Shown piece by piece: positions 321 through 53,610 of a stretch of DNA of 64,000 nucleotides. Origin of the DNA: Pachysolen tannophilus NRRL Y-2460. Its lineage: Eukaryota. Location: contig KV454011.1 of the NCBI GenBank assembly GCA_001661245.1, positions 1,390,724 through 1,454,723 on the forward strand, read 5' to 3'. The notes beneath the pieces were generated by a model, which was not told where the DNA came from, ran no database searches, and was given only the letters and a program-made list of their open reading frames with translations. Numbering within the stretch: the first letter of the stretch is position 1; every line of letters starts with the position of its first letter. The position numbers and the translations under genes were made by a program.

Positions 321-351
<31 letters not shown>

Positions 352-429
352 CTTATCTTTTATATTTATTATTATCTTAGTTGTTAAATTGTAGTAATTT
401 TTCCAATTTTTTCCCCTAAATTTATCAAT

Positions 430-1761
430 TTATTCATCGACAAGTATGAAATCATCCAATTCAAATGGGGCGGTAGAGTTAAATGGTGCTGCGGACACAT
501 TTATATATTAGGTTTTCTTTTTGTTTTTTTTTTTAGACTTCTGGGTGATGACATGTTACAAACATGGCAAATAGAACCCATACGCCTCTTTTATATATGT
601 TCCAACTGGAAATGCACACATACAAGAGACATATGAACCTACTGCCATGTTTCAACCTGCCATTACCTTCATCATAAAAATGTTCTTTATGAACATCATC
701 ACTGCTGGATGATGCATCATTTTAAATCCACTACCGCTAGCCATTGAGGAATCATTCATATTTTTACCAGTACTATTATTGTTTCTGCCTTTATCAGCAT
801 CACCAAAAAATTCATCTATTGTCTTTTCTGTAGGTTCCATTTTTAAATCCGGTTCTCCAACTTCATTATTATTTCCCAGTTGTACAAGATTTAACAATAA
901 ATTTCCATTGTTATCCATAGGAGATAATAATGTAGTTAAATCTTCATTTGAGAATTCGTGTTTAATTTGCAAATTTGTTGAAAATAATCCATTATTATCG
1001 TTATCTTCATTTAAATTCAAATCATCTGCAAACAATGGATTAGCCAAATAATCATCAACCATTTTTGGATTCAACTCCAAGGTTAAATTTGAAGGTGAAG
1101 TAGAACCCAAGTTAGACAGAGGTGGCGATAAATAAAGATTACTTTGCCTCAGTTCAACTTTTGGCACTTGCAAAGAAACCTGCTCCTTGTTTTTCTTGTT
1201 CTTGATATTTATCTTTTCATTTTCTTCTTCTTCTTCTTCGTCTGACATCATCATCATCTGCCCATCACCATCAGCGTCAGCATCTCCATCTCCGTCAACG
1301 TCAACGTCAACGTCAACATCAACATTGTTATCTTCCAGCCCCAAATTTTTATTACGTTTGTTGGTATTTTCATTGAAACCGCTCATAGATTTCTTTTTCC
1401 CTTGCATTAATTCCAAAGTATCAAATCTTGTATCTGGAATTTTCGGAAGCAAGCTAATTTCATTTTGTAATTCCAGCTTCAAGCTAGCATCAGTAACGTA
1501 ATCAATCAATTTAGCTTCAATAGACATCAATTTCGAATCTCTTTCTTTGAAAACTTTTAAACTTTTTTGCAATTCCAAAACATGATTTTCTAAAAACTCT
1601 ACATGTCTTCTTTTCTTTTCACGAGACGCATGTGCTGCCCTTCTATTTCTTAAAATTCTTTCAATTCTCCTTTGTTCTTTTTCTTCTTGAGTCTTTGCTC
1701 TCTTACGAGGCAGCAAATTTGTGATCACCACATTCTTCTCTGTACCCTGATCCAACGACAT
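430..1761 (-). CDS. HAC1: bZIP transcription factor Hac1. Spliced form joins 1761-705 and 491-430 (372 aa); unspliced form is 1761-652 (369 aa)
   Basis: LPRKRAKTQEEKEQRRIERILRNRRAAHASREKKR bZIP and HHPAVM at the 5' Ire1 site. Splicing gives the C-terminus PAAPFNSTAPFELDDFILVDE*, similar to the FELNDF tail of induced Hac1. Confidence 0.96.
492..704 (-). other. Non-canonical Ire1-excised intron of HAC1 (213 nt)
   Basis: 5' hairpin CAUCAUC[CAG^CAGU]GAUGAUG and 3' hairpin AAAUGUGU[CCG^CAGC]ACCAUUU. Both 7-nt loops match the CNG^CNG Ire1 consensus, and splicing gives a sensible reading frame. Confidence 0.92.
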
Positions 1762-3312
1762 GATGAATTTTTCTAAACCAGCAATAAAAAAAATAAAAAA
1801 TAAAAAATACCAATTTTAATTAATTAGTATTATTATTATTTCTATTTCTATGCTTGTTTATTTTTGTAGTGGCGATTTTCCCATCTATTTATATTAGCGC
1901 TATTGAACGAGCAGAATTTCAAAACGAAATTTCTAAAATTAATTTTTGCGCCTCAAAACCTTGATACCCTGTACACGACCTACGTTTTTCTTTTGTCTTT
2001 TTTGACTTTTTTGTTCTTTTTTTTTTTAATCCCCCCTTTTTTTTTAATTTTTTTTGATTTTTTTTAGCCCTGGCTTTTAAAGCTTGTTTTTTTAAGTTTA
2101 TTCTAGACTTTTGGAATTACGTCATGTGTCAGGACTAGATGTTATCTCTTTGGCTCTTTTGGGGTTATGCTTTGCGTCACCTGGCGTTTAAGGGCAATGC
2201 CAGCCAGTACCTGTGTTCTAATACTAATACTAGTACCAGTGACGGCACCGACGAACAAAATAACTGAAGGAGTATTATTAAATGGGAAAAGATGGTGATG
2301 GCGTATATGTATGTATATATGTAGAATCAAGTTTGAAGATCGCTAGGGTCTACATTATTGTGAATTAAAAAAAAAGAAAAGTAGTTTTAATTAATAAATC
2401 TTTACGCTGAATTTACATTAAATAGGCACAAAAATATGTTATGTGCATCAATTTCCAAATCAAGATTTAATTGATGATTTATGATTTGATATTGTCTTTT
2501 TCAAATTAACAAAATTATGGATAGCTTATTGTTGGATAACAATTAAAATAGTGTAATTACTATTGTCAAACTTATTTTTTAGTCTTTGTCTTGCACTACT
2601 AGTTTAAAAAGCCAAAACAAAAAAAGAAGAAAACTTATCATCTTTGGAAATAATAAGTGGTTATATAAAAAAAGGACATTGAAGATGAGATGAGTTTTTT
2701 TCCTTTGAAGGAAGGATAAATGATTTTTTTTAAATTCAAAAGTCTTAATCTCTTAAATTTACTTATCTATTGGTAGAAAGATATTTCATTTACAAGGTTT
2801 TTTTTTCTTTTTTTTTCTAAGCGGCTGATTTGATTTAATTTGATTCAATTTTTCTTTTTTGAAAAAAGAATCTAACTATCATGTTATATTGGCGCTTCAC
2901 TTCACTAAAAATTTCCTGGAAAAAAAAACAAACCTTGGGCATATTAAGTATAGATAATCTTTTTAATGAAAATCTAAAATGAAATTGAAGTATTTTGATT
3001 TTCAATTACTCAAATACCCGATCTTGAGTTTGACTATCATGCATATACAATTTGTGCATAATAAATACTCTTCTTATCTACTACTGTTTAGTACATAGGC
3101 GTCTTGTCTTGCCGCTAATATATACTACAATCTTTTATTTTTAATAAATTAAAAATGATAATAATAATGTAGATAGGTAGATAGATAGATAGATAAATAG
3201 ATATCTATATAAAGCTCAGATACTGACTGGGCTTACCAGCGATAATGGACTATCAATTAAATAATTAAATTTAATATAATAATTACTCCAAGTTAATTAG
3301 GTCAAAAAAAAA

Positions 3313-31560: not shown

Positions 31561-32666
31561 ATGCATTTACAATCAAATTCGGATGAAGCGCCAACAAGTC
31601 CACAACAAGGACCGTTGATTTCAGGGTTTCTTTTATTCACTTCTGGGATTACGTCAATTTTAGGGTATCTTTCACAATATGATTCAGCTTTAACTGGAAC
31701 ATATGGAGATAAGACATTAAATTTCTTACACTTCTTGGTAATCAGGATCTATATTGTGGCTTCAAGGCCTTTTAAAGGTATTCGTACTTTCTATTATTCA
31801 GACGCCTGTATTTATCCAATTAAAGTAAGTAAAATTATCACTATAAATTAACCGCCGTTAACAATAAAAATAATAGCAAATAAAAGTATACTTACTAACA
31901 CAAAAATTAGGGAATTCAATTTTATTGTCAACATCCAGAGTTATGGAGTTCTTTACAGGTCATTCTCCCACGGTTAGCAATTTCTTTTCTTGCCTATTTT
32001 TTCAGTTTTATTATTTTTTTACCTTCACAAATTGCAGTTTCTTTTATATTTGGAGGTCCATTTGGGTTTTGTTTTGCCATAATTAGTTGCATACAACATG
32101 GTCATTATTATTCGACATTCATCTCTGAAAATGTGTTACTTTACGAGCCAAGAGATTTAATTTTTGATAATACAATGATTATTTCCGGAAATAATGAAAT
32201 TGTCTTAAATGGTAGATTAAGAAGAATTATAAAAGTTCCATTTATTACTCGCTTGAGAAGATTTATATGGGGAATTCCATCAAATTTAGTTTTCATGCCA
32301 GTGGAAAAATCAAAATTGATTATACCGACTATTTATAATAGTGTACCAATATTAGGACCAATTATTTTGAAATTAAATAATGCCTCTGCTAAAGGGATGT
32401 CTTATCAAAAGAGGTATTTCAATTTGAAAAATTTGAAGAAATCTCAAATTGGTTTGCTTGGTAAGAAGAAAACTGGAAATTATGCTTCATTTGCATTTAC
32501 AGCTGCTATTTTAGAATCAATTCCTATCTTGGGATTTTTATTTGAATTGACCAACTCTGTTGGCGCAGCTTTGTGGTGTTGTGAATTAGAAAATAAGATG
32601 AAAGAGCTCGATTTCGAAGCAGATAGAACTGATACAATCAGAGGATTGGTTACCGTCATGATGTAA
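31561..32666 (+). CDS. RRT8/LDS-family (EI24-domain) membrane protein; exons 31561-31824 and 31911-32666 (339 aa)
   Basis: Splicing GTAAGT...TACTAAC...TAG gives YPIK|GIQFYCQHPELW; C-terminal ESIPILGFLFELTNSVGAALW. Adjacent to GSH2, as RRT8 is in S. cerevisiae. Confidence 0.8.
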
Positions 32667-53538: not shown

Positions 53539-53610
53539 TCCGAAGTAGTGTAATGGCTATCACCTCGCGTTCTCATCGCGATAATCCGGGTTCAATTCCC
53601 GGCTTCGGAG
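53539..53610 (+). tRNA. tRNA-Glu(CUC)
   Basis: Acceptor stem TCCGAAG/CTTCGGA, anticodon arm TCGCG-TT CTC AT-CGCGA, T-arm GGTTCAATTCC, downstream T-run. Confidence 0.96.

What the first reader, a model, noticed from the sequence alone, without database searches (positions are those of the whole stretch)
544..667. HAC1 intron is a long RNA rod with an Rnt1-type AGUU tetraloop that buries the unspliced stop codon
Seen on the mRNA strand, nested helices: GGUAAUGGCAGGUUG/UAACAUGUCAUCACC (13 of 15 pair), AAACAUGGCA/UGCCAUGUUU (10 bp perfect), GUAGG/UCUAU, UUCAUAUGUCUCUU/AAGAGGCGUAUGGG (14 bp), GUAUGUG/CAUAUAU, a 5-nt bulge, then UUCC[AGUU]GGAA. That is about 53 bp, with many G-U pairs that work only on the mRNA strand, and it probably extends to about 530-680. 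The Hac1u stop codon (654-652) sits inside the stem. Established: yeast RNase III (Rnt1) recognises AGNN tetraloops and cuts some intronic stem-loops. Inference: this may be a different way of silencing unspliced HAC1, by Rnt1 cleavage or structure-imposed stalling, instead of the 5'UTR-intron pairing of S. cerevisiae, which I could not find here. The rod would also bring the two Ire1 hairpins together.
Basis: partly seen in the sequence, partly recalled or inferred. Interest (0 to 1): 0.8.

Follow-up and report, generated by a model that had tools for sequence, protein, structure and literature searches.

The report
Stable RNA rod inside HAC1 intron
A yeast stress-response gene (HAC1) carries, inside the intron that is cut out during ER stress, an unusually stable 53-base-pair RNA hairpin whose tip resembles a known nuclease signal; the hairpin is real and looks selected, but its job is still open.

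Summary
Window 667-544 (minus strand) folds into a 53-bp hairpin of -58.0 kcal/mol (z -8.5, 0 of 200 shuffles). It is the most stable of 6,344 124-nt windows in the 64 kb. It has 9 G.U pairs against 1 A.C opposition, and the antisense strand reaches only -35.3. The rod fills 124 of the 213 nt of an Ire1-type HAC1 intron (704-492) in a yeast that reads CUG as Ala. The Hac1u stop (654-652) lies in the stem, and the tip is UUCC[AGUU]GGAA.

The Rnt1 reading stays unproven. For it: two other long HAC1 introns from metagenomes (L003, L004) also have a central rod tipped CC[UGGG]GG and CC[AGGU]GG, a motif seen in about 0.1% of background hairpin loops. Against it: only 4 bp precede a 3-nt bulge, Rnt1 is nuclear, S. 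cerevisiae HAC1 is not a listed substrate, and the stop lies in the rod only here.

A strong exon-exon zipper, not the rod, brings the two Ire1 hairpins together. No convincing 5'UTR-intron pairing exists. My best guess is an architectural or insulating module of long HAC1 introns (0.4). No RNA data or close relatives were available. The scan had noted HAC1 introns in two other genomes, but not this rod.

The parts
705..1761 (-). HAC1 exon 1 coding sequence (ATG at 1761). Left unspliced, the ORF runs on to the stop at 654-652, giving a 369-aa Hac1u.
   Evidence: ORF. bZIP_1 E 1.6e-5. Relatives named Hac1. P0001 is the same protein read with CTG as Ala.
1778..1811 (-). U-rich tract of the presumed 5'UTR (-50 to -17). 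It is a weak candidate partner for the intron's A-rich linker.
   Evidence: Gapless complementarity of 26 of 34 positions, dG -12.7, p about 0.08 against 200 shuffles. 0.0 expected bp in full-length ensembles. A two-strand cofold gains -7.6 kcal/mol. The transcription start is unknown.
731..760 (-). Exon-1 half of the exon-exon zipper (core GCGGUAG at 737-731).
   Evidence: Duplex with 479-440 of -25.4 kcal/mol. Core pairs have probability 1.00 in a 401-nt context.
693..715 (-). 5' Ire1 hairpin: 8-bp stem and 7-nt loop CAG|CAGU (707-701), with the cut between 705 and 704.
   Evidence: Site finder. The canonical fold is -8.0 kcal/mol. Stem probability 0.95.
492..704 (-). Ire1-type unconventional intron, 213 nt (predicted; no RNA evidence).
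   Evidence: Both loops fit CNG|CNGN. Splicing joins ...HHPA to APFNSTAPFELDDFILVDE*, a tail like that of L004.
672..692 (-). Small 9-bp hairpin between the 5' site and the rod.
   Evidence: -5.0 kcal/mol, z -3.0.
652..654 (-). Hac1u stop codon UGA, base-paired inside the outer helix of the rod.
544..667 (-). The rod: a 53-bp hairpin of 124 nt, 58% of the intron.
600..614 (-). Apex: 3-nt bulge CAU (614-612), 4-bp stem UUCC/GGAA, and tetraloop AGUU (607-604).
   Evidence: Pair probabilities 0.90-0.98, with loop nucleotides unpaired at 0.99-1.0. AGNN tetraloops make up 27 of 3,474 background loops.
501..543 (-). A-rich single-stranded linker between the rod and the 3' site.
   Evidence: 9.2 of 43 nt paired in the ensemble. 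It holds the only difference from contigs X1 and X5, a 2-nt tract-length change at 523.
480..503 (-). 3' Ire1 hairpin: 8-bp stem with bulged U497 and 7-nt loop CCG|CAGC (494-488), with the cut between 492 and 491.
   Evidence: The canonical register is -1.6 kcal/mol, against -3.3 for a 5-nt-loop alternative. Canonical pairs have probability 0.56. The hairpin is weak.
430..491 (-). Exon 2 coding part (stop TAA at 432-430), including the exon-2 half of the zipper (CUACCGC at 476-470).

Best explanation
The segment is the structured core of the Ire1-spliced intron of HAC1 in a CUG-Ala-clade yeast. It is a free-standing 53-bp RNA hairpin kept by selection on the mRNA strand.

Most likely it is an architectural or insulating module of a long HAC1 intron. 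It locks 124 of the 213 intron bases into one inert rod. The long intron then cannot mispair with the weak 3' Ire1 hairpin, the exon-exon zipper or the coding region, and the loop the zipper must close shrinks from 213 to about 89 free bases.

Shown: the fold, its exceptional stability, its strand bias, its place in the intron, and the presence of like rods in two other long HAC1 introns.

Inferred: that splicing happens at these sites, that the rod forms in vivo, and what it is for. That the stop codon lies in the stem is probably incidental.
For: Stability and strand bias:
- z -8.5, 0 of 200 shuffles.
- Rank 1 of 6,344 windows.
- Mean pair probability 0.95 in a 1,551-nt mRNA model.
- 9 G.U pairs against 1 A.C opposition. 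My binomial estimate is one-sided p 0.011.
- Sense -58.0 against antisense -35.3.

The same design recurs in the only two other long HAC1 introns I could obtain:
- L003 (297-nt intron): a 46-bp rod, -58.3 kcal/mol, z -10.8, antisense -38.4.
- L004 (626-nt intron): a 24-bp rod, z -5.3.
- The L003 and L004 rods align at 81% column identity although the introns differ two-fold in length. 2 of the 20 predicted pairs change on both sides and stay paired.

In silico, removing the rod lowers the probability of the canonical 3' hairpin from 0.56 to 0.49 (3' arm forced unpaired) or to a mean of 0.41 (40 shuffles of the 3' arm, 82% of them below wild type).
Against: The in-silico benefit is small. The zipper stays at 0.98-0.99 and the 5' hairpin at 0.91-0.92 without the rod.

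After the rod forms, 37 + 52 nt still separate the two cut sites.

Pure architecture does not explain why all three rods end in CC[A/U]GNNGG, nor why the rod needs 53 bp.

There is no RNA-level evidence of any kind. The two comparators are related to each other, so they count as one independent lineage. A covariance model of the CTG-clade rod does not find the window's rod: 27 hits at E up to 10, none at 544-667. The likeness is therefore one of design, not demonstrated homology.
Confidence: 0.4

Rival explanations
1. RNase III target. The CC[A/U]GNNGG-capped rod is recognised by the dsRBD of an Rnt1- or Dcr1-type RNase III, which cuts about 14 and 16 nt from the loop. That would set the level of unspliced HAC1 transcripts in the nucleus or help dispose of the intron.
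For: AGUU fits the AGDU ideal G2-loop (PMC4334505, passages), and the loop is robust.

The pre-stated test, whether the loop is conserved, gives AGGU in L004 and UGGG in L003, all three closed by two C:G pairs.

Background rates:
- AGNN tetraloops: 27 of 3,474 loops in the window and 22 of 1,252 loops in L003/L004.
- CC[WGNN]GG tips: 5 of 4,256 loops in the window, the rod itself among them. In L001-L006, 5 of 3,192, and all five carry the UGGG or AGGU loops of the two rods.

Positions +16 and about -14 are base-paired. Bulged stems can be cut (YDR514C and CAF4 in PMC12363893, passages). Intronic Rnt1 hairpins that destroy unspliced RPS22B and RPL18A are known (PMC4937481, passages).
Against: Only 4 bp lie below the loop before a 3-nt bulge. 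The first 5 bp are reported as required, and pairing is preferred over the first 7 nt (PMC4334505).

Rnt1p prefers short stem-loops to long duplexes, and its motifs are 'randomly distributed', most of them inert.

Rnt1 is nuclear (PMC12363893). All nuclear HAC1 RNA is unspliced, so an intronic site cannot select HAC1u over HAC1i, and cleavage would destroy the latent pool.

For S. cerevisiae HAC1, the rows shown place the predicted G2-loops on the antisense strand (12 of 20 supplementary files searched, 10 passages seen). HAC1 is not mentioned in the PARE study's main text.

The rod is far longer than the enzyme's ruler needs. No RNase III gene is among the window's 19 other ORFs of 200 aa or more, and the genome is not held. 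The comparison rests on n = 3 introns from two lineages, and the CC..GG class was defined after seeing the data.
Confidence: 0.2
2. Platform for a 5'UTR-intron translational block of the S. cerevisiae or K. lactis kind. The rod takes up the rest of the intron and presents the 43-nt A-rich linker just 3' of it. The linker pairs with the U-rich tract at -50 to -17 and blocks initiation on HAC1u.
For: The best gapless match between the 200 nt upstream of the ATG and the intron is exactly this pair: 26 of 34 positions, dG -12.7. The linker is the intron's only long unpaired stretch.

A cofold of the 5'UTR piece and the intron alone pairs them, gaining -7.6 kcal/mol.

In L003 a strong UTR-intron match (dG -26.5, 0 of 200 shuffles) lies at and just 3' of the rod's 3' arm.

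K. lactis is reported to pair -52..-28 with its intron (PMC6116095, passages).
Against: p is only about 0.08 against shuffles.

Expected UTR-linker pairs are 0.0 in all four full-length models tested, where the U-tract prefers other A-rich partners.

A/T tracts are everywhere in this 28.8% GC window.

The transcription start is unknown. L004 shows no significant match.
Confidence: 0.13
3. Elongation or termination roadblock. Ribosomes translating HAC1u must melt the lower 20-25 bp of a -58 kcal/mol hairpin to reach the stop. They stall or trigger no-go decay, which limits Hac1u.
For: The stop 654-652 is paired inside the rod, 14 bp from its base. No initiation block is evident.
Against: The stop is not in the rod in L003 (stop at intron positions 33-35, rod at 117-225) or in L004 (stop at about 99-101, rod at 263-319). 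The rod design therefore does not depend on it.

Ribosomes unwind stable hairpins, and the block in S. cerevisiae proved to act at initiation (PMC6627864, passages).

Ribosomes stalled there would also sit on the 5' Ire1 site.
Confidence: 0.1
4. Neutral by-product. The intron grew by an inverted duplication, and the hairpin is a decaying DNA palindrome without function.
For: HAC1 introns expand and contract widely, from 19 to 848 nt (PMC6222058, passages).
Against: 9 G.U against 1 A.C, and a 23 kcal/mol gap between sense and antisense. The same bias appears in L003. The L003 and L004 rods are conserved in sequence. The arms are not repeated elsewhere in the window.
Confidence: 0.07

Closest known systems
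S. cerevisiae HAC1 unconventional intron (252 nt) with its 5'UTR-intron translational block
   Same: A bZIP host gene. Two Ire1 hairpins with 7-nt CNG|CNGN loops. A medium-length intron near the 3' end. An intron-encoded Hac1u tail and stop. Splicing swaps in an acidic tail (reviews PMC13703316 and PMC6627864, passages).
   Different: No convincing 5'UTR-intron pairing here. 58% of this intron is a single rod. The Hac1u tail has 16 residues instead of 10. I could not fetch the S. cerevisiae sequence, so no direct fold comparison was made.
Long HAC1 introns of CTG-Ser1-clade yeasts (Iracane et al. 2018, PMC6222058), represented here by metagenome loci L003 (297 nt) and L004 (626 nt, the length reported for C. 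parapsilosis)
   Same: A central, sense-biased rod with a CC[WGNN]GG tip. The Ire1 loops and spliced tails are alike.
   Different: No detectable sequence or covariance-model homology to the window's rod. Their stops lie upstream of the rod. L003 has a strong UTR match. In the passages I read, that paper describes intron lengths and splice sites, not an internal rod.
Rnt1p G2-loop (AGNN) substrates, including the intronic hairpins of RPS22B and RPL18A
   Same: A terminal AGUU tetraloop that fits AGDU. A stem long enough for cuts at -14 and +16. A position inside an intron of an mRNA.
   Different: A 3-nt bulge after 4 bp. A 53-bp stem rather than a short stem-loop. The host intron is removed in the cytoplasm by Ire1, not by the spliceosome. 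No cleavage data.
XBP1/HAC1 exon-exon 'zipper' (Peschek et al. 2015; seen only as a citation in PMC6627864)
   Same: Here too, exon sequences flanking the two hairpins pair strongly (-25.4 kcal/mol, probability 1.00).
   Different: This is a separate element from the rod. It, and not the rod, brings the cut sites together.

Membership tests
Ire1-spliced HAC1/XBP1 unconventional intron | Host gene is the Hac1/Xbp1 bZIP factor | tested here: met
   bZIP_1 E 1.6e-5, slightly under Pfam's cut-off (25.3 against 27.6 bits). 286 relatives at E up to 1e-3, several of them named Hac1.
Ire1-spliced HAC1/XBP1 unconventional intron | Two stem-loops with 7-nt loops CNG|CNGN at the exon-intron borders | tested here: met
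   5' site: 8-bp stem, CAG|CAGU, -8.0 kcal/mol. 3' site: CCG|CAGC on an 8-bp stem with one bulged U, only -1.6 kcal/mol and probability 0.56.
Ire1-spliced HAC1/XBP1 unconventional intron | Splicing changes the reading frame or tail to a conserved activating C-terminus | tested here: met
   The spliced tail APFNSTAPFELDDFILVDE resembles L004's ...NSAAPFQDLFDFE....
Ire1-spliced HAC1/XBP1 unconventional intron | Intron removed on ER stress in an Ire1-dependent way | not testable with these tools
   No RNA run was listed.
S. cerevisiae-type 5'UTR-intron translational attenuator | Extended 5'UTR-intron complementarity beyond chance | tested here: inconclusive
   Best match 26 of 34, A/U only, p about 0.08. 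0.0 expected bp in 4 full-length ensembles. -7.6 kcal/mol in an isolated cofold.
Rnt1p G2-loop substrate | Terminal NGNN tetraloop (ideal AGDU) | tested here: met
   AGUU. The closing pairs have probability 0.90-0.98. The consensus is from PMC4334505.
Rnt1p G2-loop substrate | Continuous pairing directly under the loop (first 5 bp required, first 7 nt preferred) | tested here: not met
   4 bp, then the 3-nt bulge CAU on the 5' arm. The 3' arm is paired throughout. The rule is from PMC4334505.
Rnt1p G2-loop substrate | Helix reaching the cut sites at -14 and +16 | tested here: met
   Positions +13 and -15 are the only unpaired ones in the first 20 nt besides the bulge.
Rnt1p G2-loop substrate | Loop conserved in related elements | tested here: inconclusive
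   AGGU (L004) and UGGG (L003), with the same CC/GG closing pairs. Background is about 0.1%. These are only two comparators, and they are related to each other.
Rnt1p G2-loop substrate | Cleavage by the enzyme, and an RNase III gene present in the genome | not testable with these tools
   No genome is held. No RNA data. No RNase III domain in the window's 19 other ORFs of 200 aa or more.

The most novel reading that the evidence does not exclude
Long HAC1 introns of at least two budding-yeast clades (CUG-Ala and CUG-Ser1) share a module that has not been described: a roughly 25-55-bp rod capped by CC[A/U]GNNGG. The cap is a docking site for an RNase III-family dsRBD (Rnt1, or Dcr1 where that enzyme has taken over). 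That would give the UPR a second, nuclease-based control over how much unspliced HAC1 RNA, or excised intron, persists.
Probability: 0.2. Interest if true: 0.75.

Novelty: new variant of a known kind. Interest (0 to 1): 0.5.

Why it matters
Outside Saccharomyces and Kluyveromyces, it is not known why many yeasts keep HAC1 introns of hundreds of bases, or how, or whether, they keep unspliced HAC1 silent (reviews PMC13703316 and PMC6116095, passages).

A selected rod that fills most of the intron recurs in unrelated long introns and carries a shared tetraloop tip. That gives a concrete, mutable element to test. If the tip is an RNase III signal, it would link two well-studied RNA pathways that have not been connected: searches for HAC1 with Rnt1, AGNN or RNase III found no such report. 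If the rod is only architecture, it still explains how very long Ire1 introns stay compatible with a weak 3' hairpin.

Tried and rejected
- Own genome: not held. I could not look for RNT1, DCR1, IRE1 or paralogues.
- Rfam: no family reached threshold in 1-2400 (8 chance-level hits at E 0.65-6.3). The whole window gave only a tRNA.
- Sequencing runs: no RNA holder listed. The contigs of X1 and X5 are identical in the rod. X6 covers only 608-895, with no differences. X7 touches only low-complexity tracts. This gave no variation for covariation analysis and no evidence on splicing.
- Relatives' DNA: the nearest proteins, P0002 and P0003 (39% and 37% identity), end in the same HHPA-V/A-M splice-site peptide.
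- Metagenome scan: 6 of 593 pattern matches encode a Hac1 relative. Only 2 have long introns. L001 has about 19 nt, L005 33 nt and L006 26 nt, and L002 looks intronless.
- Covariance model of the L003/L004 rod: no hit on the window's rod.
- First RNAduplex scans of the UTR against the intron gave only irregular, uninterpretable duplexes. I replaced them with gapless scoring.
- Earlier scan notes: nothing for this genome or this protein. Two HAC1 notes on other genomes did not bear on the rod.
- Hooks & Griffiths-Jones 2011 (PMC3225973) and Lebars et al. 2001 (PMC125334) are not held. The former may describe structure inside long introns, and I could not check it.
- Supplement search of PMC4334505 reached 12 of 20 files.
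- Considered and dropped: snoRNA or miRNA-like precursor (no Rfam support), repeat or MITE, stop-codon readthrough stimulator (the UGA-A context and the downstream frame show nothing), and assembly artefact (two studies agree).
Full report
WHAT IS THERE

The minus strand of window 1761-652 encodes a 369-aa bZIP protein. Its relatives include proteins named Hac1 from Ogataea, Wickerhamomyces, Candida and others. The database copy of this protein (P0001) differs from my standard-code translation only by Ala for Leu at the six CTG codons. The organism therefore belongs to the yeasts that read CUG as alanine (NCBI table 26). The window is 28.8% G+C.

THE INTRON

- An 8-bp stem with loop CAG|CAGU sits at 715-693 (-8.0 kcal/mol).
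- A second site, CCG|CAGC, sits at 503-480 on an 8-bp stem with one bulged U. It is weak: -1.6 kcal/mol, and probability 0.56 in a 401-nt context.
- Cutting after G705 and after G492 removes 213 nt (704-492). This replaces the Hac1u tail VMMFIKNIFMMKVMAG* with APFNSTAPFELDDFILVDE*. The new tail is like the spliced tail of the metagenome locus L004.
- Exon sequences outside the two hairpins pair strongly: -25.4 kcal/mol, with the GCGGUAG/CUACCGC core at probability 1.00.
- Splicing itself is inferred. No RNA run holds this sequence.

THE OBSERVATION

- 53 bp, -58.0 kcal/mol, z -8.5, 0 of 200 shuffles as stable.
- It is the most stable of 6,344 124-nt windows on both strands of the 64 kb.
- It survives in a 1,551-nt model of the mRNA, with mean pair probability 0.95.
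- Nine pairs are G.U, while only one opposition is A.C. The antisense strand reaches only -35.3 kcal/mol. For a decaying DNA palindrome the two kinds of transition mismatch should be equally common. My binomial estimate for 9 of 10 is p 0.011. This points to selection on the RNA.
- The arms are not repeated elsewhere in the window.
- Contigs from two studies agree on the sequence. The only difference is a 2-nt length change in the A-tract at 523.
- The stop codon 654-652 is paired inside the outer helix.

ANATOMY OF THE INTRON, 5' TO 3'

1. Second half of the 5' hairpin.
2. A 9-bp hairpin (692-672).
3. The rod (667-544).
4. A 43-nt A-rich linker that stays unpaired (9.2 of 43 nt paired).
5. 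First half of the 3' hairpin.

COMPARISON WITH OTHER LONG HAC1 INTRONS

No close relative's DNA could be had (see Tried and rejected). One metagenome scan gave six Hac1 loci. Four have short introns or none. Two have long ones: L003 with 297 nt and L004 with 626 nt. Both have canonical Ire1 loops and sensible spliced tails.

Both carry a central rod:
- L003: 46 bp, -58.3 kcal/mol, z -10.8, antisense -38.4.
- L004: 24 bp, z -5.3 in an 86-nt context.

The two rods align at 81% column identity, and 2 of the 20 predicted pairs change on both sides while staying paired. They are therefore one conserved element of that lineage. A covariance model built from them does not find the window's rod: 27 hits at E up to 10, none at 544-667. 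A central rod is thus a recurring design of long HAC1 introns, but homology with this one is not shown. In the passages I read, the papers on HAC1 intron diversity describe lengths, splice-site hairpins, the degron and UTR pairing, not an internal rod (PMC6222058, PMC6116095, PMC8002603, PMC13703316). Hooks & Griffiths-Jones 2011 could not be read.

THE TETRALOOP

- The tip is UUCC[AGUU]GGAA, with pair probabilities 0.90-0.98.
- AGUU fits the AGDU ideal reported for Rnt1p G2-loops (PMC4334505).
- Among predicted hairpin loops of this window with at least 4 closing pairs, 27 of 3,474 are AGNN tetraloops.
The L004 rod ends in GCC[AGGU]GGU and the L003 rod in GGCC[UGGG]GGUC, both with probabilities of at least 0.94.
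- In L003/L004 sequence, 22 of 1,252 loops are AGNN and 36 are WGNN.
- Tips of the form CC[WGNN]GG number 5 of 4,256 loops in the window, with the rod itself among them. In L001-L006 they number 5 of 3,192, and all five carry the two rods' own loops.

This agreement is unexpected and keeps the RNase III idea alive. It rests on three introns from two lineages, and the CC..GG class was defined after seeing the data.

AGAINST THE RNT1 READING

- Only four pairs lie under the loop before a 3-nt bulge, while the first five are reported as required (PMC4334505). Bulged stems are sometimes cut, however (PMC12363893).
- Rnt1p prefers short stem-loops, and most G2-loop motifs in the genome are inert.
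- The enzyme is nuclear. There every HAC1 transcript still has its intron, so cleavage could lower HAC1 output but could not silence the unspliced form selectively.
- For S. cerevisiae HAC1, the rows shown place the predicted G2-loops on the antisense strand (12 of 20 supplementary files searched, 10 passages seen). HAC1 is absent from the main text of the PARE study.
- Searches for HAC1 with Rnt1, AGNN or RNase III found no report of a link.

- Stalling at the buried stop: in L003 and L004 the Hac1u stop lies well upstream of the rod. The rod design does not need it.
- Bringing the hairpins together: the exon-exon zipper does that. Without the rod (3' arm forced open, or shuffled 40 times) the zipper stays at 0.98-0.99 and the 5' hairpin at 0.91-0.92. 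Only the weak 3' hairpin drops, from 0.56 to 0.49 or 0.41, and 82% of shuffles fall below wild type.
- Absence of UTR pairing: essentially right. The best candidate pairs the U-tract at -50..-17 with the A-linker. It has 26 of 34 pairs and p about 0.08. It gains -7.6 kcal/mol in isolation but gets 0.0 expected pairs in four full-length models. L003, by contrast, has a strong match: -26.5 kcal/mol, 0 of 200 shuffles, abutting the 3' side of its rod.

VERDICT

The hairpin is real, exceptional and probably selected. I rank its role as follows:

| Role | Confidence |
|---|---|
| Architectural or insulating module of a long Ire1 intron | 0.40 |
| RNase III recognition element | 0.20 |
| Platform for weak UTR pairing | 0.13 |
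| Translational roadblock | 0.10 |
| Neutral palindrome | 0.07 |

It is a new variant of a known kind of element. The shared tetraloop tip is the part worth following up.

Noticed in passing
window 652-1761 (-), and ORFs throughout: The stored copy of the window's Hac1 (P0001) has Ala wherever my standard translation has Leu at CTG (6 of 6 sites). The genome was therefore annotated with NCBI table 26 (CUG = Ala).
   Followed up: partly
L003:3278-3386 and L004:3700-3785: The central rods of two metagenome HAC1 introns (297 and 626 nt) share 81% column identity, including the arms GUAUAUUAAUYUGGA / AUUARUAURCGUGGAA and the tip GCC[WGGN]GGUC. This looks like a conserved intron-internal element of that yeast lineage, and I found no description of it in the passages read.
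   Followed up: partly
L003, 5'UTR -121..-96 with intron positions 191-216: A strong 5'UTR-intron complementarity (-26.5 kcal/mol, 0 of 200 shuffles) overlaps the lower 3' arm of the L003 rod. The lower rod and the UTR pairing would therefore be mutually exclusive.
   Followed up: no
L002:60-1076: A Hac1 homologue whose single ORF runs straight through the usual junction (...NSA-APVTADFLDIF...). It looks intronless, that is, fixed in the spliced form.
   Followed up: no
window 655-703 (-): The intron-encoded Hac1u tail VMMFIKNIFMMKVMAG is strongly hydrophobic. The nearest relatives' tails (P0002, P0003) share only the first residues.
   Followed up: no
window 322-352: A run of about 29 A on the mRNA strand lies about 80 nt after the HAC1 stop codon. 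In full-length folds the 5'UTR U-tract prefers the A-rich 3' region that overlaps this run (about 350-372) over the intron linker.
   Followed up: partly
window 523: The only difference between the window and contigs of runs X1 and X5 is a 2-nt length change in the intron's A-tract. The rod is invariant.
   Followed up: yes
window 32403-32478 (+): Best hit of the covariance model built from the L003/L004 rods (23.5 bits, rough E 6e-4). It is an AU-rich hairpin near the glutathione synthase gene and is probably chance.
   Followed up: no
window 3313-63310: The neighbours are ordinary yeast housekeeping genes (aminotransferase, ORMDL, sugar transporter, Vps39, Hap4-like, Spc24, glutathione synthase, ZPR1, a four-repeat ion channel, homocitrate synthase, SNF2 helicase, WD40, PPR, a Rev3-like DNA polymerase, APC5), plus one tRNA at 53539-53610. 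No RNase III, Ire1 or tRNA ligase is present.
   Followed up: yes
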